Positions 1,568-31,407 of a stretch of DNA of 32,000 nucleotides are shown here, piece after piece. The stretch's first letter is position 1. Every line of letters starts with the position of its first letter. The notes beneath the pieces are model-generated. The model searched no databases. It had not been told where the DNA came from and saw only the letters and a list, made by a program, of their open reading frames with translations. The translations under genes were made by a program, and so were the position numbers. This stretch comes from Candidatus Saccharimonadota bacterium (GTDB lineage: Bacteria; Patescibacteriota; Gracilibacteria; BD1-5; UBA6164), in assembly GCA_965227835.1 (NCBI GenBank), contig OZ245768.1, positions 870,001-902,000 on the forward strand. The letters run 5' to 3'.

Positions 1568-1590
1568 TTTAAAAATGTTTTATTGTTAAT

Positions 1591-3775: not shown

Positions 3776-4278
3776 TCTATAACTATTCTATAAGGTAGTT
3801 TCCTAACAAGATCTTTATTAAGGGTTTCTATATATGTTTTCATTTCTACTCATTCAAGTTCTAATCAGTATTTCCTGTGTAGAACTTTTAAAAGTGTTTC
3901 ATATTTCGGGGCTTCCTTAAGAATTTCAGATTTAATATTAGGATTACTTCTTTTTACCAAGTTTAGATTAGATTCTTTAGGAATAAAAATAGAAAAGTTT
4001 AATTCATTTTCTGTATCTTTTTCTATTTCAATTATCCTTTGTGTTGCCAGTAATACAAATTTATCAAAAAAAGATTCTATTTGTATATATCATTTTCTTA
4101 AAAATACTTCACTATATCTAGATTCTATTTCTTCATATATTTCTAAAAATCTATCTACAAAATCTTCCTTTGATATTCAATATTTAGAAATCTCTTTAAA
4201 TAAAATATCCATCTTTGTATAACTTCAGGTGTTTTTGCTAGAATCAATAAATGTAGATTTAATCTCAATTTTGTTCAT
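3760..4278 (-). pseudogene. Repeat protein paralog B, N-terminal fragment, truncated by the IS (stop codon lies inside the IS terminal repeat)
   Basis: From ATG 4278: MNKIEIKSTFIDSSKNTGSYTKMDILFKEISKYGISKEDFVDRFLEIYEEIESRYSEVFLRKGY...KLPYRIVIEPVVN*. This is near-identical in layout to the paralog A N-terminus. It runs into the IS at ~3775 and stops at TAA 3760-3762. Confidence 0.8.
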
Positions 4279-4370
4279 TTTGAAAATTAATTCATTAAAT
4301 ATAAATATTAAGATAATTATTGTTTGACATAAGTCAAATAAATAAAATTAAATTTTTTGAGACAATTTTT

Positions 4371-7439: not shown

Positions 7440-7850
7440 GCAAAGAAATATGCTAATTTTGGGTTAATTTGCAACTAAGTTTTATTTTACAGAAATCCTG
7501 GTATGCAAATGAATAAATGTAAATATTGCTAACGGGCAAATGGCTGAATACAAAAATCTTACTGTGCAAAAGGCTAAAGCCTTCTGCCTAAAGAGATATA
7601 TTAAATTTAGGGTAACTTTTAATAAAATTTATTTTATTATTTTCTCTCCCTATAATAATCTCTGTTCTATCTCCTCTCCTTCCAAAAGGAGAGGGTTAGG
7701 GTGAGGATTATACGGAGAAGGTTAGGATGAAATCTGTTCTACTACCCTCTCCTCCAAAGGAGAGGGGTTGGGGGTGAGGTCTGTACGGAGAGGTTCTGCT
7801 CGGGTGAGAGTGAGGGCTCAGATTAAAGTGAAATTTAAATTCAATAACTT
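7440..7850 (+). repeat. Composite non-coding repeat, copy 1 (AT-rich 'tgcaaa' part, small NGGC-TAAA-GCCN hairpin units, then two GC-rich CCCTCTCC/GGAGAGGG hairpins with G-run tails)
   Basis: Collinear with 9300-9648. For example, aattttgggttaatttgcaactaagttttattttacagaaatc matches aatttttggttaatttgcaattaagttttattttgcaaaaatc. GC-rich hairpins lie at 7673-7694 and 7745-7766, each followed by GTTAGGGTGAGG or GGTTGGGGGTGAGG. Confidence 0.85.
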
Positions 7851-7883: not shown

Positions 7884-9116
7884 TTACCTAAGCCAAGCTG
7901 GATTTTGAGTTAAAGAAGAACCAAATCTTTCATTATTGTCTCAATTATCTTTAGTTTTAATATTAATTATTGGAACTCTAATATCTTTTATTTCAAAAAC
8001 AGTCTTTCTATTAACAAAATCATTATATTTACAGTCATCTTGTGGAATTTCTATATCTATATTATAAATTTCTTGTCAAAAATTAGTTTCTTCTCAATTT
8101 AAAAATTTAAAACCAAAGGCAGAATAATAATCATTACCATTAGTATAATAATAATGTACTACACCACTACAGTCTCAAACATAAGTTTGTTTTCCTTCAT
8201 TTGATATACTTTGAATATCTAAAATTCTATCATTTGTTAATTCAAATTTAAAATCTTCATCCAAATACTTAAAACCCTCTGATGTAAAATGTTGCTTAAA
8301 TTCTAAATCTTCACTATATCATATTTTAGTCCACCCCCCTCAATCAGTACTCATATCACAATAAACCTCAAATTCATCATTTCAACTAGGATTTATCTTA
8401 TAAACTCAATCTCAATTATCCAAACTAGATTCTAATATCCTCTTACAACTAGAATTATATATTGATTTTATTAATTCAATTCAACTTCAACTAATCTTAT
8501 CATTATCATCTATATGGGATATATATTCATCTGCTGTTGTAGCTATATCTAATTCTCAACTATCTCTTACATCTCAAATCTCTTGAACTGGAACATTTAA
8601 ATTATCTCAACCCCCTGTTAATATTCATAGCTTCTTTCAACTTACCTTAACTTGTCTATCTGCATAATCTATATCATTAGATAATACTTCTCCCTTAAAT
8701 AAACTTACAGTTTCATTTGTTTCTTCTAGTAATGCCATTAATTGAAAGTTCTTTCTATTGTCTGTAGCATAGTATGAAAAATATGTATTATCTAGTGGGT
8801 CTTTACCTTCTTTATCATATTTAATTTTTTTTAGTACTTCTTCTCATGCATATCCTTGATATGCTATAGTATTTCAATTAGTTTTAACTTCTATATAGTC
8901 ATCGGGTATTGGAAGTCTTCATCTTGTTAGTGATAGTTTTAGTCAATCTCATATACTTTCTAGTTGTACTGTTCTATTTGTATCTCTTACTCAAGATAGA
9001 TAGTCTGTATAGCTTACAAATCATATTGTTCAGATTATAGCTAGTATTGTTACTACTACTATTAGCTCTACTAGGGTGAATGCTTTTTTTAGTTGGAGGG
9101 TTAGTTTGTTTTTCAT
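7884..9116 (-). CDS. Type IV pilin-like protein with a C-terminal fibrinogen-like YCDxxxxGGGW domain (putative pilus-borne adhesin or lectin)
   Basis: 410 aa with TGA=Gly. The N-terminus MKNKLTLQLKKA|FTLVELIVVVTILAIIGTIGFVSY is a prepilin-type cleavage/methylation signal (F+1, E+5). The C-terminal half contains SCKRILESSLDNGDGVYKINPSGNDEFEVYCDMSTDGGGWTKI (motif at 8331-8363). This matches the fibrinogen-related-domain core C..I...G...G.Y.I.P.....F.VYCDM.TDGGGWT. Ends in TAA 7884-7886. Confidence 0.85.
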
Positions 9117-9184
9117 TTGAGGGGGAGTTAAGAGTTAAAAGTTATAAAGTTAAAAGTTTTTTATAGTTTTTTTATAAACATTTA

Positions 9185-9648
9185 TATTAGATAAAGGTCT
9201 GAATGCAAATAACTTACTGTACAAATGGCTAAAGACTTCTGCCTAAAGGGTGTAATGGTAATATGAGACAAATGGCTAAAGCCATCTGTTGAAATGAATA
9301 TAATAATTTTTGGTTAATTTGCAATTAAGTTTTATTTTGCAAAAATCTTACTATGCAAATGGCTAAATGCAAATATTGTTAATTGAGCAAAGGATTGAAT
9401 ACAAATATTGTTAATGGGCAAAGGGCTGAATATAAATATTGTTAATGGGCAAAGGGCTAAAGCCCTCTGTTGAAGGGAAACAATAGATTTAAAAATAATT
9501 TATAGAGTAAAATTTATTTTATTATTCTCTACTCTGTAATAGTAATTTATATTCTATTCCTTCTGTTCTATTCCCCTCTCCTCTAAGGAGAGGGGTTGGG
9601 GGTGAGGTTACCTCGGAGAGGATTAGGGTGAGGTTTGTTCAGATCAAA
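9185..9648 (+). repeat. Composite non-coding repeat, copy 2 (same orientation as copy 1)
   Basis: Contains hairpin units at 9272-9285 (atggc-taaa-gccat) and 9453-9466 (agggc-taaa-gccct). Three tandem ~31-bp units lie at 9371-9477 (aaatattgttaatgggcaaagggctgaatat...). The GC-rich hairpin cccctctcc-tctaa-ggagagggg lies at 9573-9595 and is followed by ttgggggtgagg ... ggagaggattagggtgagg. Confidence 0.85.
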
Positions 9649-10312: not shown

Positions 10313-12073
10313 TTATGCTAAACCATCATAATAATCTAAAACTATCTTTTTTGTATAATTAATAATTTCTGATGATTGCCTAGGAGATAAATCATCAAGA
10401 TTTAAAAGAGATTTAATTTCACTCACAACCATACGAACAAAAACATCTTTATTTTCTTTGTCTACTTCTTGATTATCTTTCATAAATTCATAAATCTTAC
10501 TCTTTAAAAATCTATAAATAAATTTCTGAGAATGAGGGTAAAACAGTTTTCTATTCTTACGACTATACACTTGGATACCCTCAAAGGTATTAATAAAATC
10601 TAGTTCTTTTAAATGTTCTATATATACCTTTTCTCTTAATATATTTATATCTTCTGAACTGAATCAATAAACATTAACAAGTTTATTTTGTATCTCTCTT
10701 ATACATTGAGAATAATTTTTATTACTTTCTCCCACATCAATACTACAATAACCCACATAGTCAGAGCATAGAGAATATATTTCACTAAGTGTTGTTAGAA
10801 CTGATAAATCATTGTCTTTTAAAATATTTGGTTTATCAATTTTTGTTTTTTTAAGCCTATGTTTATTTGAATTATAAGATACTTTAAAATAAATCTTTCA
10901 TCAACTAAAAAAAGCATTTAAGGTGATATCTCATGAATCACATAGATATTGAAAAAATTCTTTAGAATGCAAAAGAGAGTTAAGATTACTTTCAAATTCA
11001 GATTTAAATACTCTTACAAGTTCTCTTGCTCATTTTTCTCTTGAATATCATAAATCTATAATATGTTTGTACAAACTATTATCTAAAGAAAGATTTACCC
11101 TAGATTCTTTATAAAACTTTTTTAAAGCATCATTAATATCTGAAACTTGAATTTCAAGTATTTTTCTACATTCGCTTAGTCAAATATTATCAAAAATTAT
11201 TACATCATCCAACCTTCAAATAAATTCAGGAGAAAATTTGGTCTTCATACTATCATTAAATATCTTCTCAGATACTGATTTTATATCTCCTACATTATCT
11301 TGAACAAATCAAATAGGAGGAGTATACAAAGATTTATTTATTTCTGATTGTCATATATTGGAAGTAAAAAAAATTATTGAGTTAGCTAAAGAAGTAGTTT
11401 TCCCTGAAGGAAAATCTATTTTACCCTCATCTATAACACTCAACAAACTTTGAATAACAACAGGACTAGCTTTTTCTATCTCATCAAAAAGTATTATATT
11501 AAAATTATCCAGCTTTTTTACACAATCATGCAAACTTCATTTTCTTTTTGCCTTTTCATAAGGTTTAAATAATTTTCTAGCAGAAAAAGGTGTATCGTCT
11601 TTATATCACACATATCCTTTGGGTGATCAAAAAACATTGGATAATGTATGATCTTCAGTATAAGTCTCACAAGCTATTTTTGTAATACTTTCCCTATCTC
11701 AAAAAATAGCTTGTGCCAAAGCTTTGGGTATTTCCGTTTTTCAAACTCATGTAGGTCAGACTAAAAATAGAACTGAAATTGGTCATCTTCTTGGTCTAAT
11801 TGATAAAATACTATTTATTATTGAATCTAGTATTTTATGTTTTGCCTCATTTTGACCAATTACAATTTTATCCAAAGAATTTAATAAGTCTATTTTATGA
11901 TGATTAATGCTAGGAGCCTCTAATATTTCATAAGCTCTTTTTTTAAATCATTTTACTGGTCTTTCTGTAGAATTTATATAACTAGATATTCTTTTTTCTA
12001 CAGGTTGAGAAGAGTCACTTGAATTAAAATCACTTACAATCTTTCTAAGATTTGATTTATCTCAACTTCACAT
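10313..12073 (-). CDS. Stand-alone ClpA/ClpB D2-like AAA+ ATPase (AAA_2) with a ~200-aa uncharacterised C-terminal extension
   Basis: 586 aa with TGA=Gly: ...LDKIVIGQNEAKHKILDSIINSILSIRPRRGPISVLFLVGPTGVGKTEIPKALAQAIFGD...GSPKGYVGY...IILFDEIEKASPVVIQSLLSVIDEGKIDFPSGKTTSLANSIIFFTSNIG...FSPEFIGRLDDVIIFDNI...GYSREKGARELVRVF. All three glycines of the Walker A GPTGVGKT are TGA. No N-domain, D1 or ClpP-loop was seen. Ends in TAA. Confidence 0.85.
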
Positions 12074-12253
12074 CTTTAATATTTATAAATAAATTTAAAA
12101 TTTGTCACCTTATATTAATAGGATATTTACATAAGTCAATTAGAAAAAATAATATTTTTTTACAATTTTACAAAAAGTTTTATATATTTTAGGGAAACCT
12201 TGAAGAATTCTAAACAAGATTTTAGATTTATTTGAAAAAATAAAAAATAATCT

Positions 12254-15191: not shown

Positions 15192-17204
15192 TTAAGTTAA
15201 GTTTAGTTTAGATGAAATTAGTTCTAATAATTGTTCACTTGTTTTTATAGAATCAGATATATTAATTCATTTCACTCACAAGAAATTTGTATTTCTGTCT
15301 TCAAGTATTTTTCATATTTTTTCATTGGTGTCAGTTGCTATTGCATCCCATAATCTATACCAACGATTTTTTATTTTGATTATTTCACCATATTTTTCAA
15401 ACAAACTAAATAAATTATTGAAAAAATCTCCACCTTTTTGTTTTATTATTTGAGAATTACCAAAAACATATAAATGTTCCTGTGCTCTTGAAATAGCTAC
15501 ATTAATCCTTTCTTCTTTTTCTAAAAATCCTATTTTACCATATTTATTACTCCTTGTAAGAGATAGCAAAATAACCTTTCTTTCATCTCATTGAAATGAA
15601 TCTACAGTAGCCACACATTTTAACCAATTTTCTTGGTCTCACCTAAAAAGTTTTATTTTTTTAATTTCTGATTTTATCAGACCTACCTGTGATTTATATG
15701 TCGCAATTATAGCTATATCTCAAGGTTTATAACCTTTGCTAATAAGTTGAGATAATTTTTTGCATATAAGCTGTGCCTCAAGTTTATTGCTATAGGAAGT
15801 TTGATTTCTAGTTTCCCAAATCTTATCTAACAAGGAATAATCATACCAAATAACTTCTCAATCTTTCATATATTCTCATGGTTTCATTTTTCATCCATAT
15901 GTAAGCTTTGAAACAATCTGAGTAATATTTTTAGAAGAACGATAATTAGTATCAAGAAATACATAAGGAAAAGGAGTATCTTTGATGACATTATTTTTTT
16001 TGTATTTATCAAGAACCGTAGTAAAAAAGCTATTACTTAATTTTTCTTGGTTTCTGTTAACATTACCAAGCTGTCTTGGATCTCCACAAAACACAATCTG
16101 TTTTTCAGCAAGTCATAAAGACATTATTAAATCTTCTTCATGCATTCTAGTAGCTTCATCAATAACAACTATATCAAAATTTTTTATTTGATTTATATAT
16201 CATCATAGTGTTCAAAAGGTTCATGCTACCAAGACACCTTCATTTATTTTTTTTATTTTATCATCTCTGCTTGAACTAAAAAAGTTTATTCATAATTCAT
16301 CTTGTTCCAAACTATACTTATCATCATTAAAATTTGATTTATTACTTAAGCTAGAAGGAGATAATTCATAGCGTCCATAAATTTGATCCAGCTCAGATTT
16401 TACAAAATTAATCTCTTTGGAATAGTGAGAAGATTTTCTCTGTTGAGTAGATTTAAACTCTGTTATAGGAAGTAAAGAATATGGAATTTCATTATGAGTT
16501 TTACTTGAAACTAAAACACTTTTCACATCTTCTAGTCTATCTACAATTTTATCAAGTGTTACCCATACTCATTTATTAGAATGAGATAAAAGAAGTATTC
16601 TTTTACCTTCCTTAGCATTTTTTAATAAAAATTCAGAGATTAGGCTAGACTTACCAGTTCAAGGTCATCAATGAAGAAATACAAAAGGATTATTAGTGTA
16701 ATCCTTTGAAATTGATAAAAAATCTAGTTGAGATTTGTTGAAAGATATATCCGAGTCATATGTATTAATTTCTTTTTTGAAATGTTTTGTAAAATTTCAC
16801 TTTGATAAAAATTTAAGTGGACTTCAATCAATAAATTTTGTTCTATCATATTTAGTTTTTATACCTTCTAGGTAAGGTGAATAATTTAGATTTTCTACTA
16901 AGATATAATTATTTTTAGATAAAAGTAAATCCATCCATTCATATTTATTATGAAGTGGTCAAAATATTTTAAACTCTGGTACTCCACCAAATAATAGTCC
17001 AAACATAGTAATTATGAAATATTCTCAATAATCTCATTCTGATATACAGTCGCTCATATCATTTATATCACGAAATGGTCATATTAATTCATAAGGTTCT
17101 GTATTAAGTGAAATATTATTGCATAGTCTTCTATATTGAGTTTTTACATTATCAATAATTGTTGAATCATTTTGATTTAGATTATTTATTTGATTTATAT
17201 TCAT
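15192..17204 (-). CDS. Superfamily 1B (Upf1/DNA2-like, AAA_11/AAA_12) helicase with an uncharacterised ~190-aa N-terminal region
   Basis: 670 aa with TGA=Gly. Walker A FVFLHGGPGTGKSSLI (G G P G = TGA TGA CCT TGA). Walker B / motif II FDIVVIDEATRM. ...VFCGDPRQLGNV..., ...TNYRSSKNI..., ATVDSFQGDERKVILLSLTRSNKYGKIGFLEKEERINVAISRAQEHLYVFGN. The apparent stop at 15312 is TGA; the frame continues to TAA 15192-15194. The three standard-code fragments share the frame. Confidence 0.85.
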
Positions 17205-17237
17205 ATAATTATTATTGAGACAAAAATTTATATTTAA

Positions 17238-17530
17238 AGTTTAATAGAGAATTTTATAGGAATGAGTGATAGAGAGCAAGCTCTCTATCACTCATTTACG
17301 GAACCATACAAGTATGATAGTTTTACCTATATTTTATCCATAGAGGCCTGTGAAACCTCATTCCTCACTTTTTAGTTATAACAGAGGCCCGATCTAAGAA
17401 ATGTTTGGATTTCTTGTTTTTATGACATTTGTCAAAATTCCTAATAAGGCAGGTTTTCGTACTATCAAGGCTCTTATAGCCACTACTTCCCTTTCTTTTC
17501 AGAACAAACAAGATTTTTAACATTTCCAAA
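17238..17530. ncRNA. Candidate structured non-coding RNA or long structured 5' leader (class not recognised)
   Basis: GC-enriched island in an AT-rich spacer with no open frame in any phase. It contains a perfect 17-bp-stem palindrome at 17261-17296 (aatgagtgatagagagc-aa-gctctctatcactcatt). An alternative partner ctcattcc (17357-17364) exists for ggaatgag (17259-17266). Further hairpins: aagaaat-gtttgg-atttctt (17396-17415) and ggct-cttat-agcc (17469-17481). AGAGGCC is duplicated at 17342 and 17383. A leftward promoter-like module at 17587-17614 would transcribe it on the minus strand towards the helicase. Confidence 0.35.
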
Positions 17531-17586
17531 TTGAATTATATTGTGATAAATATATATTCAACAAATAAAATGGAAATGTTAGAAGT

Positions 17587-17614
17587 ATTTTACTCTGTTT
17601 TTTATAAAAGTCAA
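17587..17614 (-). promoter_or_regulatory. Candidate leftward sigma70-type promoter (towards the structured island and helicase)
   Basis: On the minus strand: TTGACT (17614-17609), 16-nt spacer, TAAAAT (17592-17587). It lies inside the left arm of the inverted repeat. Confidence 0.45.
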
Positions 17615-17862
17615 AAAATTTCAAAACTCCCGAGTTTTTATAAAAAGTATTCTTATCTTTTACTTTAAATAAGAAGATATTGAACTATTTTTAGTGTTTT
17701 ATCTTTTGTGTTTTATAAATGACTTATTTAAACTAATTTTATCTTTATAAAATTTAATCAATATAAAAACTCTGTTTTTACTTATATAAAGGTAAAAAAT
17801 AAACTATAAAGCATAAAAACTCGGGAGTTTTGAGAAAAAATAATTTGACTTTTATAAAATAA
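17600..17862. repeat. ~45-bp inverted repeat pair enclosing ~170 bp of AT-rich DNA
   Basis: Left arm: TTTTATAAAAGTCAAAaaatttCAAAACTCCCGAGTTTTTAT (17600-17641). Right arm, reverse complement of 17813-17859: TTTTATAAAAGTCAAAttattttttctCAAAACTCCCGAGTTTTTAT. Each arm contains a small palindrome AAAACTC-CC/GG-GAGTTTT. Confidence 0.8.
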
Positions 17863-17872
17863 TCAATATAAT
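17845..17872 (+). promoter_or_regulatory. Candidate rightward sigma70-type promoter for the Nudix gene
   Basis: TTGACT (17845-17850), 16-nt spacer, TATAAT (17867-17872), ~30 nt upstream of ATG 17904. It lies inside the right arm of the inverted repeat. Confidence 0.55.
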
Positions 17873-17903
17873 GACAATACTTTAATTATTAATTTTTATA
17901 AAT

Positions 17904-18749
17904 ATGAGTGTAGATAAATTACATAGCTCTTGATCTAACAAAAGTGAAACTTTAGTAGATTGAGAAACAAACTCTAAAGTTTTAGACATATTAATGGTAC
18001 AAACAAAGGCTAGAAAAACCAAAGAGGAATCTTATCCAAACAGATTTGAAGTTCCAGATGATAAAGCTTCATGGGGTTCAAAATTTGAATGATATTATCC
18101 AGGTTATTTTGAACATGGAGATTTAACAAAGTTTGATTGTACAAGATCAACATGATGATGGGCAGATCCAAGAGATATTAGTAAAGTTGATTTTACTAAA
18201 AGAGATAGTAATTACGGAGAAATAAAATTTGATGAGAAATGATATCCTTTAAATCCTATGGGTCGTACAGGCCTTAAAAGTAGAGGTATGCTTGGGAAAT
18301 GGGGACCTAATCATTCGGCAGATCCAATAATATTAAGAGAAACACCAAATGGAATGGAATTATTATGTATATTAAGAAGTAATTGAGAATGGGCTATACC
18401 ATGAGGTATGATAGATAATTTTGAAGAACCTATGACAGCTGCGTTAAGAGAACTTTGAGAAGAAGCATTAGGAAAAGGATTTGATAAGTCTATATTTACA
18501 AAAAATATGACTACAGTATATAAATGATGAGTAGATGATCCTCGTAATACGGATAATGCTTGGATGGAAACTCATGCTTATGCAACCATATTGAATAATG
18601 AAGAATCTAGATCGCTAAAACTAGAAGCTGGTGATGATGCTAAAGATGTTAAATGGATGGCTTTAACAGAAGAGAATATAGAAAGCTTATATGCAAGCCA
18701 CGGAGAACTTGTAAAAAAAGCTATGGTAGTTTTGGGTATAAATAGGTAG
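17904..18749 (+). CDS. Nudix hydrolase, NUDT9-like ADP-ribose pyrophosphatase
   Basis: 281 aa with TGA=Gly: ...[37 protein letters not shown]...[28 protein letters not shown]...[16 protein letters not shown]... The GRTG..GRG.LG.WGPNH.ADPI block and the Nudix box G.....E.......REL.EE..G are as in NUDT9-type enzymes. Fragment 18564-18749 is in frame. Ends in TAG. Confidence 0.8.
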
Positions 18750-21849: not shown

Positions 21850-22150
21850 GAAAAATTAAAATTTGACAAAGAATTAAAGCACTTTGTTGAATAAGTCAAC
21901 AAAATTTTGAAGTTCCTTACTGAATAATATCAAAAAGTGTTGAATTTCTCCGTTGATCAAATTTGGCAAAGAGCTAAAGCTCTTTACTGAAATAATATAA
22001 TAATTTTAGAATAAAATTTATTCTATTATGCTTTGCTATATAATAATATCTGTTTTATGCCCTCTCCTTTAAGGAGAGGTTTAGGGTGAGGTTTTGCTCG
22101 GAGAGGGTTAGGGTGAGAGCTTTACAGAAAGGGTTAAAATGAAATATTAA
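21850..22150 (+). repeat. Composite non-coding repeat, copy 3 (shorter), upstream of the pilin pair
   Basis: Hairpin units acaaag...ctttgt (~21876-21898) and aagagc-taaa-gctctt (21969-21984). Then the shared aaatttattctattat segment and the GC-rich hairpin ccctctcc-tttaa-ggagagg (22060-22079), followed by tttagggtgagg...ggagagggttagggtgagag. Same order and orientation as copies 1 and 2. Confidence 0.8.
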
Positions 22151-22321
22151 AAAGCTTTTAATCTTTTCCTTAAAAAAGAAAGAATGTCTAGCAGAAATTT
22201 TAAAAATATTTGATTTTTGAATATTAAAAGTCAATATATTTAGTATTTTAAGGAAAGGCTAAAGAATTCTTTAATTCTGACAAAATAATAAATTTTTTAT
22301 TTTTATAACAGTAATATTAAT

Positions 22322-22897
22322 ATGAAAATTATGAGTAAAGGTTTTACCCTGGTAGAACTTATAGTAGTTATAACTATATTAGCTATATTGGGTACTATAG
22401 CTTTTGTATCCTTACAAGGTTATTCTCAAGATGCTAAAAATTCTAAAGTTGCATCTGATATAAGAACTATAGTTACATTTATTGAAACTAAACTCACACA
22501 AGGTAAGATATATATGACAGATTTAGTTGATGATGATATTGATTTAAGTTCTACAAATAAAAATGGTATAAACACATCTGAAACTTTCGGTTCTGGTATA
22601 AAACTCTCTGATAGTACATATAAAGTTGGAGCTATAAATTTCACTTGATTAAAACAAAATGGAAATGATTTTAAAGATAGTGAAAATAATGATTATGTAG
22701 CAGCAGTAGCTATAAATGGTTCTGATAATTCTTACTATCAAATTGCTGGTCAGCAAAAAAATACAGATGCTACATACACTACAGTAGTTAAAGGTAACTA
22801 TGTACAAATCATTGATAGTGATACTGTTGGTTTAGTGTCTGAGACATCATCAAATAAGTGAGTAGTTAGTGGAGAAATAATATCTAGCTTATATTAA
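22322..22897 (+). CDS. Type IV pilin (prepilin-type N-terminal cleavage/methylation domain)
   Basis: 191 aa: MKIMSKG|FTLVELIVVITILAILGTIAFVSLQGYSQDAKNSKVASDIRTI... (G-1, F+1, E+5). The standard ORF 22322-22648 continues through TGA to TAA 22895-22897 and ends ...GEIISSLY*. Confidence 0.9.
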
Positions 22898-22910
22898 AAA
22901 AAATATAGTT

Positions 22911-23483
22911 ATGCATTTGAAAAAAAATGCTTTTAGCATAACAGAATTAATAGTTGTAATAGTAATTTTACTTATATTAAGTTCACTTTGATTTATTCAT
23001 TTAGCAGAATACTTTTGAAATGCTAAAAAATCAAAAATAATCTATGACATTAAAAGCCTTACTTCAAATACAGAAATAAAATTATCTAAATGATTTGATA
23101 TAAAAGATTTGATAATAAAAAATGAAAATAACACAAATAAAGTTTATGGTTTAGTTACTATTGGTTCAGGTAAATATATACTGGATGAATTAAAATATGA
23201 AGTGGGTAGTTTTGATTTTTCGAAACTAAAAATTAACAAAAATGATTTTTTATACGAAGATTCTTGAAAACTTAGAGAATACATTTTTGGATATGCAAAA
23301 ACTAGTAAAAAAGTTTATTACGAATTTGCATGACAAGTATTTGATTCTACTTGAAAATACGATGTTTTTGTTTCAGGTAGCTATAAAAAACTTTCAAGTA
23401 CAGATACAAAAGGACTTATAAGTGAAAATTGATATTCATCTTGATTAAAAAATTGAATGACACTCACGGGGAGTTTATATTAA
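22911..23483 (+). CDS. Type IV pilin-like protein (minor pilin/pseudopilin candidate)
   Basis: 190 aa with TGA=Gly: MHLKKNA|FSITELIVVIVILLILSSLGFIHLAEYFGNAKKSKIIYDIKSL... It ends ...TLTGSLY*, the same C-terminal SLY as the preceding pilin. It starts 13 nt after that gene. Confidence 0.8.
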
Positions 23484-23557
23484 GTAGATTCCAGAATCTA
23501 GTGATAGAAATTTTTGAAAAATTAATGTAATTTAGAACAATTGAGAAACTCTAAAAC

Positions 23558-23590
23558 AAAAACACTATTTTTTAAAAAATAGTGTTTTTT
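23558..23590. terminator. Bidirectional terminator between the convergent pilin genes and pilT
   Basis: aaaaacactatttttt/aaaaaatagtgttttt palindrome with A/T runs on both sides. Confidence 0.65.
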
Positions 23591-23618
23591 AAATATTTTT
23601 TAAAATATTAAGAGTTGG

Positions 23619-24701
23619 TTAGTACAAAGACTCTTTTATTAATTTAGGGTTATTAGCATATTTTATCCCTTCATCTTCTGTAATAAATCACATATTTATC
23701 AAATCTACTATATCTTTTTCCAATATCTGCATTCACTCTCTTGTTCACATTTGTAGTACAGAAGGTAGCTGATGAAGTTCATTTTCTCTTATCAAATTTG
23801 CCACAGCTCAACTATTTACTAGTATTTCTTTTGCCATTCTTATTCATGTACCATCCCTAGTTTTTAAAAGCCTTTGAGAAAATACAGAAACCAAAGAATC
23901 TGCCAACTGCATTCTTATCTGGCTTTTTTCTTGTCATTCAAAACTATCCATAATTCTTGTTATAGTTTGATAAGCTCATCTAGTATGTAGAGTTGAAAGG
24001 ACTAAATGTCCTGTTTCAGCTAAAGTCAAAGCTATTCTTATTTCTTCTTTTGATCTCATTTCTCCAAAAAATATAATATCAGGAGATTGCCTCATAGCTC
24101 ATACAAGTGCAGTTTCATAGTTAGGAACATCTTTTCAAATTTCTTTATGCTCTATAATGGATTTTTTATGATCATGTATGTATTCTATAGGATCTTCTAT
24201 TGTTATTATGTGTTTTTCATAATTAGAATTTATATAGTCTATAATAGCAGCCATAGTTGTAGTTTTTCACGATCAAGTAGGTCATGTAACAAGTATAATT
24301 CATTGTCATTTTTTTGTTACTTCTTTGAATATATCAGGCAGATGAAGTTTATCTAAACTAGGTATTTCTGAAGTTAAAAGCCTCAAAACTATCATATAGT
24401 TTGATAGTTGAAAACTTATATTTACTCTAAATCTCCTATTACCAAAAGTAAGAGAAAAATCTAGATTTTTACTTTTCATAAGTTCATCATGTTGTTTTTC
24501 ACTTATTATAGATTGAACAAATTCAAGTGTATCTTTCCACTTCAATTTTTCTATATTTTCATTTATAAAAATTATTTCTCATCATATTTTGACAGCTGGA
24601 TATGCTCAAACTGTTATATACATATCAGATCCCTCGTTATCAATCATAACTTGTAACAATTGATCTTTCAATATATTTTCTTCCAAGATAACTTTTTCCA
24701 T
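23619..24701 (-). CDS. pilT: Type IV pilus retraction ATPase PilT
   Basis: 360 aa with TGA=Gly: ...[20 protein letters not shown]...FRVNISFQ...[45 protein letters not shown]...[38 protein letters not shown]...[21 protein letters not shown]. The Walker A codons at 24261-24290 include three TGA. Fragment 24306-24545 is in frame. Ends in TAA. Confidence 0.9.
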
Positions 24702-24730
24702 TTTTCAAAAAATTAATTTATAAAATATAA

Positions 24731-25951
24731 CTATAAATTCTTAGCTACTTTTCACATTTCAAAGAAAGGAAGCATTATAGATATTATTATAGAACCTACC
24801 AAAAATCATACTATAACTATTATAATTGGTTCCATCATACTAGATAGGTTTCAAATATACCTTTTCAATTCCGAATTATAACTTTTTCATATTCTTTCAA
24901 GTGATTTTGATAAACTTCAAGTTTCTTCTCATGTGCTAACTACATAAGCAAATTCTTCTGTAAAAAGCTTGTTCATATAAACAGATGATTCATATTCTAA
25001 GTTTAATCACAAAGATTTAGATATAGTTAATCAAAGCTCTACTTCGTTTTTTATTCTTATTAATTCTTTTTTATAAGATAGATTTGAAACTACCTGACTA
25101 GATATTTTTAAGGATTCTAGGAGTAAAACTCAAGAATTTAAAAGTATAGTAAAACTCTTTATAAAATATACTATGTTAGATTGTTTTACTATATATCCAA
25201 AAATAGGAAGTTTTATAGCTATTTTAGAAAATATACTTTTTCAAAAATAAGTTTTATTTAATAATTTATAAATTATAAAAACAGATATTACTGTTCCTAT
25301 GATTATCAAATAATCATTTTTTAAGAAGTTTGATATATTTACTATAATTTGAGTTGGAGCAGGGAGTGCAGCTCATGCTTTTTGGAAAGAGTCTGTAACT
25401 CTTGGTACTATAAATATCATCATAAATACTACCATTGCTATAGTAAGAGTAAATAATATGGCAGGATAAACCATGGCTCATTTTACTTTTGATTTTATTT
25501 CTATACCTTCAACCATATTAGTATCAAGTTCACTTAGAATATGACCTAGTTTTCAAGTTTTTTCTCATACTTTTATAAGAGATATAGTGAGTGTATCAAA
25601 AACTTTTGGATATGATGACATAGTTTCGTTTATAGATATTCAGTGATCAATGTTGTTTTTTATTTCTTTTACTATTTTTTTTAGATAAGGATTTGTAACT
25701 TGCTTTATCAAAATATTTAATGCTCCTTTTACGTCTATTCATGAATTTAGGAATATAGAAAATTTATTTATGAATTGCCATACTTCCTTTTTTGAAACAC
25801 TATTAAACAAAGTTATCTCTATATTTGAAATTCATTTTCTATTTTTATTATCCTGATTTTGCTTTTTTCTTGCCTCAAAAAGGAGCTTAACAATCTTGTC
25901 ATTGTTGAAGTTTCAATCTTTATCAAAAAATTTTTTTCAAAATAAAGCCAT
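24731..25951 (-). CDS. pilC: Type IV pilus platform protein PilC (GspF family)
   Basis: 406 aa with TGA=Gly. Two GspF-type repeats: ...FSIFLNSGIDVKGALNILIKQVTNPYLKKIVKEIKNNIDHGISINETMSSYPKVFDTLTISLIKVGEKTGKLGHIL... and ...FTILLNSGVLLLESLKISSQVVSNLSYKKELIRIKNEVELGLTISKSL...VSTGEETGSLSKSLERIG... Hydrophobic segments are present. Ends in TAG 24731-24733. Confidence 0.85.
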
Positions 25952-25954
25952 TTT

Positions 25955-27949
25955 TTATATATTTCAATCTTTAGATATTATATTTTCCGATTCTTGTATT
26001 ACTGTTTCATAGTCTCCTTTTTTCATCAATTCTTTCATTAAATTGTATTTACTTCTTATTCTGTCTTCTTTCAAAGATATTTTATATTTTTGTTCATTTT
26101 CTATAGCCTTTTTCAGATAATAGTTTATCTTTTTATGTATATATCACTGTTTTATATATCTTTTTGCTTCACTTTTTAATTTAAGAACCTCACCTGTTAA
26201 CCATAATTGTTCAAGTTGTCTTATTATACTTTTTAAATAATTTTCAGCTTTTAGTTTTTCTAATTCTTCTTGTATTTCTTGTTTAGTATTTCATTTTATT
26301 CTTCTTATATCTCTTTTAGGTATTGAGTTTATTTCTCAAATTTGTCTTAAGAAATCTTCTTTGTCTTTTATTTTATCCTTTTCAAAATCTCTTTTTAAAA
26401 GCATTAGAGTCAAATCATCATCAAAATTTGATCATCATCTAAAATTTTTGGCATCTTTTATTATAAAATCATATATTTTCCTAATATCTTTTTCAAAATC
26501 AGCAGCTTTTTTAAAAGTTTGGGATAATCTATCTATTGAATAAAACTCTCAATCTATAGATTTAGACTCTACTATACCATCACTATAAGTAAGAAGTATG
26601 TCATCTTCTCACATATCTATAGTACTTACTTTTATATTATCTGAATCTTTTATAAGCCTTATTCAAGCGGCTAATCATCAAGGAATTATTTTTTCAACTT
26701 CTTTTTTTTCCTTCCTGTATAAAAGTATGGGTTCATGTCAAAGCCCTACAAATCTAAGCTTATTTATATCTTCTTTTACTATTTCAAAAAATATTCATGT
26801 TATAAAATTCATTGATTTTAAATCTTGTTTTAATCCATTGTTTATTTCATATATGAGTTTTTTTATTTCATACTTTTCAACAAATTTATTAAAAAGTCTG
26901 GTAAGAAGTGTTATTATAAATCATGCTTTTATTCAGTGTCATGTTGCATCTCATATAAAAAAAGTATATTTCTTGGCAAGTTCACTATATCAAAAAGTAT
27001 CACCAGATATCTTATGAGCACCCAAAATTTTACCATAGAGATCATATCATACTATATCTTTTTTTGAAATATCCTTTATTAAACCTTTATGTATATTTTC
27101 TAGTTTAGCTGAAGCTATTTGGTTTTTTACTTTATCTTCTTCTTCTATAAGAAGATTTATCTCATCTAAAAGCTTTTTCTTTTCTAGGTTTTTTTTGATT
27201 TTTTTATAAAAATTTAAACTTTCTTTGAGTTTATAGAAAATACCTTTTTTAACTTTTTTTTCTTTTTCTTTTTCTACTAAATCATTACTAACAGTTTCAC
27301 CTATTAATTTCATAGCTTCTATTTTAGCATTTTGTTTAAGCTTTTGTTCTTCGCTTTCTTTTTCTTTTTCTATTTGTTTTAATATAAATTTTTTCTCTTT
27401 GTTATAAAAATCTATCACGAGTTTATTTCAAGAGTATTCCTCTAAAAAGCTTCATAGTAATTTCACAGCATCACTTGCTTTTCATGTTTTTGCTAAATGA
27501 TGAGACTCTTGCTTAATATTTTTAAACCTAATTTCAAATCTTTGTTTTTCTATTTTATTTTGATATTTTTCTTTTTGTTTTTTGTATATTTCTGAAAGTT
27601 TTTCTATTTGGGTTTGTTTATCTTTGTATAATTTATTTAATTTTTCTTTTTGTTTCAAAATTGACTTATCTTCATTATTTTCTGACAATTTACTTAATAA
27701 ATCTTTATACGAATTTTCCTCTTTTAAATATACTTCCCTTATAGATCTTTCTGCTTTTTCCCACTCATAAGTAGCTATAAAAAACTTAATTGCCTTTATA
27801 GCCTCTTTATAATTTTTTATATTTTGAGTTTTTATACCTTTATTCTCGGTTTTTCAAAAAGTACTAGAAAAAAATCCTTTTTTGTTTTGCTTTTTCTTAA
27901 TTTCTATTTTTCCTTGTATTTTCATTTCATTTTTTACTTGTTCAACCAT
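25955..27949 (-). CDS. PP2C-type (SpoIIE/RsbU-like) protein phosphatase domain protein with long Lys/Glu-rich coiled-coil-like flanks
   Basis: 664 aa with TGA=Gly; fragments 27047-27418 and 27482-27688 are in frame. The central region reads ...ISGDTFGYSELAKKYTFFIGDATGHGIKAGFIITLL...MNFITGIFFEIVKEDINKLRFVGLGHEPILLYRKE...IPGGLAAGI...MGEDDILLTYSDGIVESKS...FRGGSNFDDDLTLMLLKR. This matches the SpoIIE/PPM signature (GD.F..., DA.GHG..A, G...P.L, SDG..E, DD.T). The start is 4 nt after the pilB stop and the stop is 3 nt before the pilC start. Confidence 0.75.
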
Positions 27950-27953
27950 ATTT

Positions 27954-29192
27954 TTATATTAATTTAAATGCTTCTTCCATAGTTGTTTCTCATAATAAAG
28001 CTTTTAATAAAGCATCTTGTACTATTGTTATCATTCAGTTTTTAATTGCTTCATCTTTCATTTCATTGTCTGAAGATTCTTCTAATATTAAAGGTTCTAA
28101 ATATTCTTCAACTATTAAAACTTCATGTATTCAAAGTCTTCATTTATAACCTGTGTTATTACATTTATCACATCAAGTTCAATGATAAAATTGCATATTT
28201 TTTAAACTTTCTTCGTCTAGGATATCTTTTAAAAATTCATGTGCTTTTTTCATATCTGAATCTCTAGGGGTATATTTTTCTTTGCAGTTATCACAGATCT
28301 TCTTTCATAGTCTTTGGGATATTACCATTTTCATAGCCGAACTTATCAAAAATGGTTCTATTCACATATTTATAAGTCTTCAAATAGTTCAGGGAGCAGA
28401 GTTTGTATGTATAGTAGATAAAACTAAATGTCCTGTAAGAGCTGCTTCTACTGCTAGAGTAGCTGTTTCTTTATCTCTTATTTCTCATACCATTATAATA
28501 TCTGGATCTTGCCTAAGGAGTGTCCTAAGTCATGATCAAAATGTATACCCTATTTCAGGTTTTACTTGGGATTGATTTACATATTCTATATCATATTCTA
28601 TAGGATCTTCCAATGTAGAGATATTGTATTCTAGAGGATTATAGTTTTTTAATATTCAAAAAAGTGTAGTTGTTTTTCAAGATCATGTAGGACCAGAAAT
28701 AAGTATTATTCAATATTTACTTTTTAATGCTTGTTTTACCCTTTTTAAATTTACATCTATTAATCCTAAAGCTTCTATGTTTGTAAGACTAGAATCTTGT
28801 TTTAATATTCTCATCACAACTTTTTCTCAGTATTTTGTAGGTAGAGTAGAAAATCTTATATCAACATTTTGTTTTTCAATTTCATGACTATATACCAATT
28901 TTCAATCTTGGGGTTTTTTGTTTTCGTCTATTTTTACTTTTGCAAGTACTTTTAATCTAGTTGTAATTGCTGATGTATTAGAATTATCCACTTTATCATA
29001 TACAAAAAAATCTCAATCTTTTCTAAATCTAATCATTATAAAACTCTCATTTGGTTCTATATGTATATCTGAAGCATTATATGATATAGCGGCTTTAAAA
29101 ATGTTATCTATGTAGTTAACTACATCTCATAATTCCTTTTTTATGGAAATGGAATCAAGTTCCTTTGTATTTTTTAGATTTGTTTGTTCCAT
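27954..29192 (-). CDS. pilB: Type IV pilus assembly ATPase PilB (GspE family)
   Basis: 412 aa with TGA=Gly: ...[23 protein letters not shown]...PQDGKL...[21 protein letters not shown]...[22 protein letters not shown]...[10 protein letters not shown]...[62 protein letters not shown]... and the tetracysteine CDNC...[19 protein letters not shown]. Ends in TAA 27954-27956. Confidence 0.9.
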
Positions 29193-29385
29193 TGATTTTT
29201 TATTAGAAATTTATTTACCAAAAATTAAGGGAAGTCTAGAAAAAATAATTTAAATGAAAAATAAATACTTTTTCACTATTTTCCTTAAATTTAATTTTAA
29301 CATATGTTTTTATAAAATTTAAATTTTATACATTTACAAACAATGTTTTTTTGTGTTTTAGATATATTTTGAAGGTTTAAAACAT

Positions 29386-30580: not shown

Positions 30581-30649
30581 CTTTTGTTTGATAAAATATT
30601 AAATACATTGTTATGATATAATATTTTGAGATTTTAGTCAAAATTTAGC

Positions 30650-30790
30650 TTTTCAAATTACAAAAAAGATTTGACTTTTTATTTTTTATTTGCAAAATCC
30701 ATTTTAATGTTTTTCTAAATTTACTAAAAGAGGAGGATAAAATGAAAACATTGAAAAATATATTTCTTACTTCAATACTACTAATCTTTA
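30650..30790 (+). repeat. Cassette 5' module, copy 1 (promoter-like region, 5'UTR with AGGAGG, and the first ~45 nt of the CDS encoding most of the signal peptide)
   Basis: From TTGACT at 30671 through the first ~45 nt of the CDS, the sequence is identical to 31337 onward and, as far as the window goes, to 31939 onward. Confidence 0.85.
30671..30698 (+). promoter_or_regulatory. Candidate promoter of the secreted-protein cassette (repeated at 31337 and 31939)
   Basis: TTGACT (30671-76), 16-nt spacer, CAAAAT (30693-98). A strong Shine-Dalgarno AGGAGG lies at 30731-36, 5 nt before ATG 30742. Confidence 0.4.
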
Positions 30791-31212
30791 GCCTAAATGC
30801 TAATGCTTCGGTAAATGATTATATTATTTCATCTTTGAAAAGCTATAGCTGGTATGAAAAGTTGGAAAATTATGGCAGAAAAAATAATGGAGAAAGAAAA
30901 CTAGACTACTATATACGATTAAGTATCGTAAGATATCTTGAAGATATAGGTCTATATAATGCAGGAGACACAAAAAATTGTAATGATAGCTCTCGTAATA
31001 GTGTAGAAACTGATACATGTTATAAAGGTACTCTACAGCAAAATATGAATCTATCTAAAACTTTAAAAAATCCAGAAGTGCAAGATATTTTGGGTAAAGT
31101 AAGCTTTTACACAATAGTTAGTATTCAGGAAGGAGTGATGTTAGAACATATTTTAAGCAGACAACAGTTTGCAAGTTCTAACCGTTATAGTTATGTGATT
31201 GGACCTTATTAG
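30742..31212 (+). CDS. Small secreted two-cysteine protein, cassette paralog 1
   Basis: 156 aa, no internal TGA. Signal peptide MKTLKNIFLTSILLIFSLNANA|SVND. Shares the core LDY.IRL.I..YLE..GLY.AG.T.NC.D...(9-10)..DTCY.GT..QN.NL..TLK with paralog 2. Ends in TAG. Confidence 0.8.
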   Translation: MKTLKNIFLTSILLIFSLNANASVNDYIISSLKSYSWYEKLENYGRKNNGERKLDYYIRLSIVRYLEDIGLYNAGDTKNCNDSSRNSVETDTCYKGTLQQNMNLSKTLKNPEVQDILGKVSFYTIVSIQEGVMLEHILSRQQFASSNRYSYVIGPY

Positions 31213-31283: not shown

Positions 31284-31316
31284 AAAACCGGTGAGCGAGG
31301 CTCACCGGTTTTTTAA
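31284..31316 (+). terminator. Rho-independent terminator of cassette 1
   Basis: aaaaaccggtgagc-gag-gctcaccggtttttt: GC-rich 9-bp stem plus T-run. Confidence 0.8.
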
Positions 31317-31407
31317 AAAAGAGTTTAAAAAAAGGTTTGACTTTTTATTTTTTATTTGCAAAATCCATTTTAATGTTTTTCTAAATTTACTAAAAGAGGA
31401 GGATAAA

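What the first reader, a model, noticed from the sequence alone, without database searches (positions are those of the whole stretch)
17238..17530. GC-enriched, hairpin-dense ~290-nt non-coding island upstream of the SF1B helicase: unclassified structured RNA or riboregulatory leader
There is no open frame in any phase, even with TGA as sense, yet the segment is clearly richer in G+C than its flanks and is packed with helices.
- A perfect 17-bp palindrome lies at 17261-17296.
- A second copy of CTCATTCC (17357-17364) can pair with GGAATGAG (17259-17266), in competition with that palindrome. Mutually exclusive structures of this kind are the logic of attenuators and riboswitches.
- At least two more local hairpins are present (17396-17415, 17469-17481).
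- The AGAGGCC box is duplicated (17342, 17383).

A promoter-like module at 17587-17614 points leftwards. The island would then be the first ~350 nt of the helicase transcript, or a separate sRNA. I looked by eye for RNase P (GAGGAAAGTCC), tmRNA (GGGGCUGA... plus a tRNA-like 3' end) and SRP (GGAAGCAGC) signatures and saw none.
Basis: partly seen in the sequence, partly recalled or inferred. Interest (0 to 1): 0.7.

Follow-up and report, generated by a model that had tools for sequence, protein, structure and literature searches.

The report
Structured RNA leader before helicase gene
The island is most likely a structured, non-coding RNA made just ahead of an Upf1-like helicase gene in an ultra-small (CPR) bacterium, and every retrievable relative of that helicase has an RNA in the same place that matches no catalogued RNA family.

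Summary
The GC bump, the perfect 17-bp palindrome, the small hairpins and the leftward promoter are all at the stated coordinates. Three details fail. There is an open frame (54 aa, or 66 aa if TGA is sense). The AGAGGCC repeat and the "competing" 8-nt pairing are at chance level. Without the palindrome the body folds only modestly better than shuffles (z -2.5).

The window uses genetic code 25 (TGA = Gly), so it comes from Gracilibacteria or SR1. The downstream gene is an Upf1/IGHMBP2-like SF1B helicase.

The decisive evidence is comparative. About 14 distinct orthologue loci were fetched. Each carries a 270-600 nt stretch directly upstream of the helicase on its strand, gene-free apart from unannotated short ORFs. 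Most are GC-enriched, and several start at a strong sigma-70 promoter. The four tested fold with z -5 to -8. Most end in a strong hairpin 12-56 nt before the start codon. Four independent sequence pairs or trios show 32 compensatory base-pair changes. None hits Rfam 15. The small ORFs show no coding signature.

Direct homology of the window's copy is only suggestive (p about 0.02; covariance models do not find it). Best reading: a lineage-specific version of an undescribed helicase leader/ncRNA. Its mechanism, cis-regulatory leader or RNA partner, is inferred only.

The parts
17587..17614 (-). Sigma-70-type promoter pointing left: -35 TTGACT at 17614-17609, 16-nt spacer, -10 TAAAAT at 17592-17587. 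The inferred transcription start is near 17580.
   Evidence: 10 of 12 consensus positions, the second-best site in the region. Several orthologue leaders start at a comparable promoter.
17518..17582 (-). 5' hairpin of the RNA. AACAUUUCCA pairs with UGGAAAUGUU around an AU-rich inner stem.
   Evidence: repeat I14: arms 17510-17528 and 17571-17589, 84% complementary. It appears in both the MFE and centroid structures.
17474..17500 (-). Purine-rich motif GAAAAGAAAGGGAAGUAGUGGCUAUAA. This is the only stretch with detectable similarity to orthologue leaders (L174 GAAAAGAAAGGGAGGUAAUCGCUUAA; L168a/b GUGAAAGAAAGGGC).
   Evidence: a 13-nt exact match and 22 of 27 positions against L174, with shuffle p of 0.02-0.03. 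AAAGAAAGGG occurs once in the window. It also occurs in the leaders of L168 (both copies) and L174.
17469..17481 (-). Small hairpin GGCU-AUAAG-AGCC immediately 3' of the purine motif.
   Evidence: By itself it is at chance level.
17396..17415 (-). 7-bp hairpin AAGAAAU-CCAAAC-AUUUCUU. Part of it (AACAUUUCU) can instead pair with GGAAAUGUU at 17519-17527.
   Evidence: By itself it is at chance level.
17297..17395 (-). GC-richest central part, holding two GGCCUCU copies, GAGG/CCUC pairings and the hairpin CCAUACAAGUAUGAUAG...CUAUAUUUUAUCC. Its structure is uncertain.
   Evidence: No relatives are close enough to test covariation.
17261..17296 (-). Terminal hairpin. On the minus strand it is 16 bp closed by G-C around a CUUG tetraloop (5'-...GAGAG-CUUG-CUCUC...). 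It ends 56 nt before the helicase ATG, and no U-tract follows.
   Evidence: I12, 100% complementary; beyond all 1000 shuffles; no terminator called. The best local match of model R1 aligns it to the terminal hairpin of the L173/L174 leaders (E = 0.013 within 601 nt).
17205..17260 (-). AU-rich spacer between the terminal hairpin and the helicase start codon. No Shine-Dalgarno sequence is present. It contains a weak promoter-like site, TTTAAA-N16-AATAAT, at 17238-17211.
15192..17204 (-). Upf1/IGHMBP2-like SF1B helicase (AAA_11 and AAA_12 domains), 670 aa with about 25 TGA = Gly codons. This is the gene that defines the association.
   Evidence: IGHMBP2 family, 1.2e-48; closest solved structures are IGHMBP2, Upf1, Sen1 and DNA2.
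17323..17523 (-). 66-codon open frame (ATG 17523, TAA 17325-17323, one in-frame TGA) that covers most of the island. Judged not to be a gene.
   Evidence: GC3 is 39% against 15% in the window's genes, and the codon log-likelihood of -0.15 is typical of off-frame sequence; no Pfam match; only low-complexity hits among 1.84 billion proteins; no similarity to ORFs in the other leaders.

Best explanation
The island is the body of a roughly 320-375-nt structured RNA on the minus strand. I read it as this AT-rich lineage's version of a previously undescribed RNA that precedes one subfamily of Upf1-like SF1B helicases in Gracilibacteria-class CPR bacteria.

Inferred mechanism:
1. The strong promoter at 17614-17587 starts the transcript near 17580.
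2. The RNA folds into a 5' hairpin, a purine-rich linker, several small helices and a very stable 16-bp CUUG-capped terminal hairpin.
3. The helicase ORF starts 56 nt later without a Shine-Dalgarno sequence and is expressed from the same transcript.

The RNA is therefore a long 5' leader that sets how much helicase mRNA is made, kept or translated, through pausing or termination, processing, or protection at the terminal hairpin. The helicase itself is a plausible ligand (autoregulation).

Shown: position, strand, promoter, GC enrichment, the terminal hairpin, absence of a coding signature, and conservation of this architecture with covariation in orthologous loci.

Inferred: the transcript ends, co-transcription in this genome, any regulatory switch, and helicase binding.
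For: - Genetic code and taxon. Walker A motifs read GPTGxGKT only if TGA is Gly. Subfamily members are named Peribacter or Peribacteraceae.
- Helicase orthologues form a distinct subfamily of about 45 proteins.
- All fetched loci have a long upstream stretch with no annotated gene, or only an unannotated short ORF. These are L001/2, L003, L004/5, L006, L087, L088, L089, L167, L168, L170, L172, L173, L174 and L175-177. In 92 loci of generic SF1B helicases the median upstream gap is 79 nt, and those gaps sit 8.6 GC points below their locus.
- The leaders are GC-enriched, for example L003 at 55% against 39% for its locus. They fold with z of -5.3, -5.9, -5.4 and -7.7.
- Covariation: 8 of 69 pairs compensatory with 0 broken; 14 of 73; 8 of 101 with 0 broken; 2 of 108 with 0 broken, plus a GAGA-to-GCAA loop swap. 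Invariant G-U pairs fix the strand as that of the helicase.
- No leader has an Rfam match at E <= 1.
- Where examined, a strong hairpin lies 12-56 nt upstream of the helicase start. In L173 and L174 it ends only 12-15 nt before the ATG, leaving no room for a separate promoter, so the helicase must be co-transcribed there.
- Window-specific evidence: promoter; minus-strand fold better than plus; a CUUG loop only on the minus strand; best local similarity to L174, one of the two closest helicase relatives.
Against: - Neither covariance model finds the window's island: R1 (built from L173/L174) and R2 (built from L087/L168). A hand-made HMM of the core motif misses it too. The only sequence link is a 13-mer with a 22/27 extension, p about 0.02 and chosen post hoc.
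- Without the palindrome the window's RNA is only marginally more structured than shuffles (z -2.5).
- No close relative of this genome could be fetched, so there is no covariation evidence for the window's copy itself.
- The terminal hairpin lacks a U-tract, so it is not a canonical intrinsic terminator.
- In L088 and L089 a second promoter-like site sits between the hairpin and the helicase. L168 has two tandem copies. Both fit a free-standing RNA better than a pure leader.
Confidence: 0.5

Rival explanations
1. A free-standing, trans-acting structured ncRNA gene that works with the helicase as a ribonucleoprotein partner, scaffold or substrate mimic. On this reading it sits next to the helicase gene in the way 6S RNA sits next to ygfA. 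The terminal hairpin marks or protects its 3' end. The helicase is made from read-through or from a weak promoter of its own (17238-17211).
For: - L168 carries two tandem full copies upstream of one helicase. The first ends in a hairpin followed by UCGCUUUUUAUAAUU.
- L088 and L089 have a hairpin followed by TTGATT-N16-TAAAAT before the helicase.
- The leaders are large (270-600 nt), with GNRA and UUCG loops and long-range pairings. That is more elaborate than most attenuators.
- The window has 56 nt and a weak promoter-like site between the hairpin and the ATG.
- The helicase's nearest solved relatives are RNA helicases: Upf1, IGHMBP2, Sen1 and Aquarius.
Against: - In L173 and L174, and in L003, L167, L006, L170, L172 and L175, the hairpin ends 7-25 nt from the start codon. 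No room is left for a promoter there.
- The RNA was never seen apart from the helicase. That absence is weak evidence, because loci were fetched through the helicase.
- No promoter was called for the second L168 copy.
Confidence: 0.28
2. A small protein gene followed by its terminator: the 66-codon frame at 17523-17323, then the palindrome. The GC enrichment would then simply reflect coding sequence.
For: - The frame exists and spans most of the island.
- Several orthologue leaders also hold 66-121-codon frames that start 30-110 nt from the promoter, and 7 of 16 leaders have a Shine-Dalgarno-like GAGGAG/AAGGAG followed by ATG (no shuffle out of 300 reached 7).
- Gene callers called such ORFs in L170 and L176.
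Against: - GC3 is 39% against 15% in the window's genes, and the codon score is off-frame-like.
- There is no Pfam family and no homologue among 1.84 billion representative proteins apart from low-complexity matches.
- The ORFs of different leaders are not similar to each other.
- Substitutions are spread evenly over codon positions, and indels are not multiples of three. L168a against L168b gives 17/25/28; L170 against L175 gives 44/38/39.
- The L174 frame stops after 18 codons while L173 stays open.
- Conserved nucleotide motifs fall in different frames in different lineages (by inspection of the frames).
- ORFs of equal length occur on the antisense strand.
Confidence: 0.07
3. No dedicated function. 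The island would be a decaying gene remnant or a foreign insertion that happens to be GC-richer. The palindrome would be a DNA-level site, such as an operator or recombination site, or a stray repeat.
For: - The body of the island folds only marginally better than chance.
- Covariance and HMM searches fail to tie it to the other leaders.
- Other spacers in the window also have GC-rich spots.
Against: - The island is unique within the window.
- It sits exactly where all orthologues carry a structured RNA, on the same strand, behind a near-consensus promoter, and ends in a comparable hairpin.
- The GC-rich spots in other spacers are a different, repeated hairpin element, CCCTCTCC..GGAGAGGG.
- Six-frame translations show no recognisable protein remnant.
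Confidence: 0.15

Closest known systems
[quoted passage not shown]
   Same: - The discovery signature is the same: a long, GC-enriched intergenic region in an AT-rich genome.
- The size is several hundred nucleotides, with many helices, GNRA tetraloops and clear covariation in relatives.
- The phylogenetic range is narrow.
   Different: - No sequence or structure match to any of them (Rfam 15).
- This RNA is tied to one specific downstream gene, an Upf1-like helicase, in every locus seen. It sits immediately 5' of that gene's start codon.
Autoregulatory structured mRNA leaders (ribosomal-protein leaders; the long 5' UTRs of cold-shock DEAD-box helicase genes such as csdA/deaD). This comparison is from general knowledge and was not tested here.
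   Same: It is a long structured 5' region on the sense strand of a gene for an RNA-binding protein, starting at its own strong promoter. The last helix lies close to the translation start.
   Different: - It is much larger and more variable in length (270-600 nt).
- The helicase belongs to superfamily 1B (Upf1-like), not to the DEAD-box group.
- No binding or regulation has been shown.
- Tandem duplication (L168) and possible internal promoters (L088, L089) are unusual for such leaders.
Riboswitch or transcription-attenuator leaders
   Same: The position is upstream of the regulated gene. A strong 3' hairpin could act as an expression platform. L173 has a canonical hairpin plus U-run 12 nt before the ATG.
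   Different: - Most terminal hairpins, including the window's, lack a U-tract.
- The proposed alternative pairing in the window is at chance level.
- No conserved aptamer-like core could be defined across the family.
- A helicase is not a typical riboswitch-controlled gene.
6S RNA-ygfA type arrangement, in which an ncRNA gene is co-transcribed with a downstream protein gene (from general knowledge)
   Same: A strong promoter is followed by an abundant structured RNA and then a protein gene on the same strand.
   Different: There is no 6S-like long irregular hairpin with a central bubble, and no Rfam 6S hit. The downstream gene differs.

Membership tests
Any Rfam 15 family (RNase P RNA, tmRNA, SRP RNA, 6S RNA, T-box, riboswitches, OLE/GOLLD/ROOL/raiA and others) | A covariance-model score at or above the family's gathering threshold, or at least a credible sub-threshold match. 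| tested here: not met
   At the gathering threshold the whole window gives only 2 tRNAs. For 17150-17900 at E <= 10 the only hits are miRNA/SorY matches on the palindrome, at 14-22 bits against cut-offs of 64-111. ARAGORN finds no tmRNA. The orthologue leaders also give nothing at E <= 1.
Helicase-upstream structured RNA of Gracilibacteria-class CPR (candidate family defined here) | Lies directly upstream of, and on the same strand as, a member of the Upf1-like helicase subfamily (P0002-P0006, P0121-P0154). | tested here: met
   The window helicase belongs to the subfamily. The island lies 34-326 nt upstream of its ATG. The better-folding strand is the helicase strand.
Helicase-upstream structured RNA of Gracilibacteria-class CPR (candidate family defined here) | Starts at a near-consensus sigma-70 promoter, is GC-enriched relative to its surroundings, and ends in a strong hairpin 12-56 nt before the helicase start codon. 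| tested here: met
   The promoter matches 10 of 12 positions. GC is 35% against 15-21% in the flanks. The 16-17-bp hairpin ends 56 nt before the ATG.
Helicase-upstream structured RNA of Gracilibacteria-class CPR (candidate family defined here) | Detectable homology of sequence and structure to other members. | tested here: inconclusive
   Models R1 and R2 give no significant hit in the window, and an HMM of the core is negative. The best local alignment is to L174, with GAAAAGAAAGGGA exact and 22 of 27 positions matching, at shuffle p of 0.02-0.03. The models also fail to link other subgroups of the family to each other, so the test has little power.
Helicase-upstream structured RNA of Gracilibacteria-class CPR (candidate family defined here) | Compensatory base changes that support the fold of this particular copy. 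| not testable with these tools
   The only close hit, P0001, is the same gene translated with code 4. The next relatives are at most 36% identical in the helicase.
Intrinsic terminator / transcription attenuator | A GC-rich hairpin followed directly by a U-tract, plus a mutually exclusive anti-terminator pairing that is more than chance. | tested here: not met
   No terminator-like site was called in 16900-18100. The tail after the hairpin is CCUAUAAAAUUC. The alternative 8-nt pairing is within the chance expectation.
Small protein-coding gene | Codon usage and GC3 like the host's genes, with homologues or conserved ORFs in relatives. | tested here: not met

The most novel reading that the evidence does not exclude
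A new class of large structured RNA (270-600 nt) that is an obligate partner of an Upf1-like 5'-3' RNA helicase in CPR bacteria. The two would form a bacterial RNA-helicase ribonucleoprotein, or a self-sensing helicase leader, with no described counterpart. The window would hold a highly diverged, AT-shifted member of it.
Probability: 0.3. Interest if true: 0.8.

Novelty: new variant of a known kind. Interest (0 to 1): 0.62.

Why it matters
- CPR bacteria have tiny genomes and almost no experimentally characterised regulatory RNA.
- A several-hundred-nucleotide RNA with clear covariation, kept next to one helicase across lineages whose helicases share only 30-45% identity, is probably important to them.
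- Upf1-like helicases are known as eukaryotic RNA-surveillance and termination motors. Outside defence systems their bacterial relatives are essentially unstudied.
- A dedicated RNA next to the gene gives a concrete handle: a candidate substrate, regulator or partner.
- It would also add a family missing from Rfam, which would improve annotation of code-25 genomes.

Tried and rejected
- **Look-ups with code-25 translations.** P0001 is not on record.
- **Wasted genome scan.** The first genome-contig scan used P0001, which carries W at TGA codons, so its back-translated patterns could not match. The second scan, with the subfamily alignment, returned only generic SF1B helicases at 23-38% identity.
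- **Viral contigs.** No subfamily member was found.
- **Self-BLAST.** Comparing the spacer with the rest of the window gave only AT-rich low-complexity matches.
- **Pairwise blastn between leaders.** Nothing was found.
- **Global MAFFT alignment of all 16 leaders.** Only short shared blocks appeared.
- **Covariance models.** R1 and R2 do not reach the window or most other subgroups.
- **Hand-built HMM of the purine core.** It was negative, but it picked up an unrelated repeated hairpin instead.
- **RNase P, tmRNA and SRP by eye.** I rejected all three: no P4/J18-2 motifs, no tRNA-like end, no GGAA/AGCA helix-8 motif and no Rfam support.
- **Defence-system reading.** PADLOC shows only generic similarity to the helicase domain of MkoA, Hhe and Nhi. 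The neighbouring genes are housekeeping and differ at every locus.
- **Small-ORF hypothesis.** Examined twice and rejected.
- **Python fold-shuffle scripts.** Two timed out.
- **Literature.** Four searches found no description of this RNA or helicase subfamily.

Full report
**What is in the window**

The window has 25% G+C. Long reading frames appear only when TGA is read as sense. Walker A motifs read GPTGxGKT only if TGA is glycine, which means genetic code 25. From general knowledge, that code is confined to Gracilibacteria and Absconditabacteria (SR1).

The finding lies in a 699-nt divergent spacer. On one side is a 670-aa helicase gene (15192-17204, minus strand). On the other is a NUDIX hydrolase gene (17904-18749, plus strand).

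**Checking the observation**

Confirmed:
- G+C rises to 30-35% over 17200-17500. The rest of the spacer has 15-21%.
- The perfect 17-nt inverted repeat is real (17261-17277 and 17280-17296). No stem longer than 10 appeared in 1000 dinucleotide shuffles.
- The two small hairpins, the duplicated AGAGGCC and the CTCATTCC/GGAATGAG pair are at the stated coordinates.
- The leftward promoter TTGACT-N16-TAAAAT at 17614-17587 matches 10 of 12 consensus positions.

Not confirmed:
- The 7-mer repeat, the competing 8-nt pairing and the short hairpins are individually at chance level.
- The fold z-score of -5.4 (minus strand) and -3.6 (plus strand) for 17238-17530 comes mostly from the palindrome. Without it, 17300-17582 gives z -2.5 (minus) and -1.6 (plus).
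- The claim of no open frame is wrong. The minus strand has a 54-aa frame, which reads 66 aa from its ATG at 17523 if TGA is sense.

On the minus strand the palindrome reads as a 16-bp stem closed by G-C around CUUG, a known stable tetraloop. On the plus strand the loop would be CAAG.

**Is the open frame a gene?**

I judge that it is not:
- Its GC3 is 39%, against 15% in the window's genes, and its codon log-likelihood is typical of off-frame sequence.
- It has no Pfam match.
- A full HMMER scan of 1.84 billion representative proteins found only two long low-complexity proteins.

**Known RNA families**

- At gathering thresholds Rfam 15 finds only two tRNAs in the window.
- A permissive scan of 17150-17900 gives only miRNA-type matches to the palindrome.
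- ARAGORN finds no tmRNA.

**Comparative evidence**

The helicase carries AAA_11 and AAA_12 domains. Its nearest solved relatives are IGHMBP2, Upf1, Sen1 and DNA2.

Its only close database hit, P0001, is the same gene translated with code 4, on a 1.49-Mb contig. The next hits, at 30-39% identity, define a distinct subfamily of about 45 proteins. A few are labelled Peribacter or Peribacteraceae.

I fetched DNA around 14 distinct members: L001/2, L003, L004/5, L006, L087, L088, L089, L167, L168, L170, L172, L173, L174 and L175-177. The surrounding genes are housekeeping genes and differ at each locus. The helicase-NUDIX pairing is not conserved.

One feature recurs at every locus. A 270-600-nt stretch lies directly upstream of the helicase with no annotated gene, or only an unannotated short ORF:
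- Several of these stretches begin at a strong sigma-70-type promoter.
- Most are G+C-enriched relative to their locus. L003 has 55% against 39%, and L006 has 48% against 40%.
- The four tested fold far better than shuffles, with z of -5.3, -5.9, -5.4 and -7.7.
- Most end in a strong hairpin 12-56 nt before the start codon.

As a control I took 92 loci of generic SF1B helicases. Their median upstream gap is 79 nt, and only 11% reach 270 nt. Those gaps are 8.6 G+C points poorer than their locus.

**These are RNAs, not genes**

Covariation in related pairs and trios:

| Alignment | Predicted pairs | Compensatory | Broken |
|---|---|---|---|
| L173 / L174 | 69 | 8 | 0 |
| L087 / L168a / L168b | 73 | 14 | some |
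| L003 / L167 | 101 | 8 | 0 |
| L088 / L089 | 108 | 2 | 0 |

- GNRA loops are exchanged while stems are kept: GCAA to GUAA and GAGA to GCAA.
- Many invariant G-U pairs fix the transcribed strand as that of the helicase.
- None of the leaders hits Rfam at E <= 1.

Several leaders contain frames of 66-121 codons, and 7 of 16 have a Shine-Dalgarno-like box followed by ATG. Even so:
- The ORFs are not similar to each other.
- Substitutions are spread evenly over codon positions, and indels are often not multiples of three.
- L174's frame stops after 18 codons while L173's continues.
- Antisense frames of similar length also occur.

I therefore treat the frames as incidental. A translated, sequence-unconstrained upstream ORF is not excluded.

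**How firmly does the window's copy belong?**

By position, strand, promoter, G+C enrichment and terminal hairpin it fits. By sequence the tie is weak:
- Covariance models built from L173/L174 (R1) and from L087/L168 (R2) do not find it.
- R2 does find the L175 leader (E about 0.001-0.003) and, weakly, the L006 leader.
- The only similarity is the purine motif GAAAAGAAAGGGAAGUAGUGGCUAUAA (17500-17474). It matches L174 at 13 consecutive positions and at 22 of 27 overall. Related motifs occur in both L168 copies.
- Shuffles give p of about 0.02-0.03 for a match that good to any leader. L174 is one of the two closest helicase relatives.
- The decamer AAAGAAAGGG occurs only once in the window.
- In both L168 copies the purine motif is complementary to a pyrimidine tract just before the terminal hairpin (read off the sequences). 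I could not find a counterpart in the window.

**Mechanism**

Two observations argue that the RNA is the 5' leader of the helicase mRNA:
- In L173 and L174 the terminal hairpin ends 12-15 nt before the ATG. In several other loci it ends 7-25 nt before. The helicase must be co-transcribed there.
- L173 even has a canonical hairpin plus U-run.

Two other observations fit a discrete RNA product:
- L088 and L089 have a second promoter-like site after the hairpin.
- L168 has two tandem complete copies.

The helicase start regions lack Shine-Dalgarno sequences and are pyrimidine-rich.

My best reading, at 0.5 confidence, is a cis-acting structured leader. Its terminal hairpin would govern read-through, processing or stability, possibly sensed by the helicase itself. 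The main rival, at 0.28, is a trans-acting RNA partner. The two are not mutually exclusive. None of this is shown experimentally.

**Novelty**

I found no description of this RNA or of the helicase subfamily in four full-text searches, and there is nothing in Rfam 15. As a kind of object it is familiar: a long GC-rich structured intergenic RNA. The family and its helicase association appear to be new.

Noticed in passing
whole window, e.g. 10316-12082(-), 23622-24740(-), 27957-29210(-): TGA is a sense codon that stands at glycine positions of Walker A motifs (read with TGA as Trp, 'WPTWSWKTT' stands for GPTGSGKTT). This is genetic code 25, so the source is a Gracilibacteria or Absconditabacteria (SR1) genome. 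The public protein P0001 for the helicase was translated with code 4, with W at these sites.
   Followed up: partly
17623-17638 and 17816-17831, within longer inverted arms 17587-17673 / 17781-17872: Two copies of a 16-nt palindrome, AAAACTC(CC/GG)GAGTTTT, each sit a few bases upstream of the -35 box of one of the two divergent promoters (the leftward RNA/helicase promoter and the rightward NUDIX promoter at 17845-17872). Chance expectation is 0.04 copies per window. The whole promoter region is a roughly 85-nt imperfect inverted duplication (fold z of -6 to -8). This may be a shared regulator-binding site.
   Followed up: partly
7671-7697, 7742-7767, 9572-9596, 22059-22078: A repeated GC-rich hairpin element, CCCTCTCC-loop-GGAGAGGG, occurs in at least three other long spacers. 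At 7660-7800 it lies inside two tandem units of about 67 nt. It explains the GC-rich spots in those spacers (up to 46% GC) and has no Rfam match. It may be a terminator or a REP-like element.
   Followed up: partly
L168:201-790 and L168:900-1500: One orthologue locus carries two tandem, diverged copies of the helicase-upstream RNA ahead of a single helicase gene.
   Followed up: partly
leaders of L173, L174, L087, L168a/b, L006, L172: A Shine-Dalgarno-like GAGGAG or AAGGAG followed 3-9 nt later by ATG recurs 34-100 nt into many leaders (7 of 16; no shuffle out of 300 reached 7). In L173 and L174 it is half of a UCCUC/GAGGA hairpin. The frames that follow are not conserved. Its role is unexplained: ribosome standby site, upstream ORF, or purely structural.
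   Followed up: partly
2-1579(-), 1594-2661(-), 3763-4347(-), with 2730-3713(-) between them: A family of paralogous genes contains repeats rich in TGA-encoded Gly ('KILLSSITDKYWNK...'). One copy appears to be split by an IS5/DDE-type transposase gene.
   Followed up: no
30649-31209(+) and 31285-31863(+): Two tandem paralogous genes encode small secreted-looking proteins. Their upstream regions and N-termini are near-identical (KRFDFLFFICKIHFNVFLNLLKEEDKMKTLKNIFLTSI).
   Followed up: no
22292-29210: A type IV pilus or type II secretion-like cluster: two prepilin-type genes, then PilT-, PilC- and PilB-like ATPase and platform genes, plus a large coiled-coil/PP2C-like gene. Another pilin-like gene lies at 7887-9134(-).
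   Followed up: no
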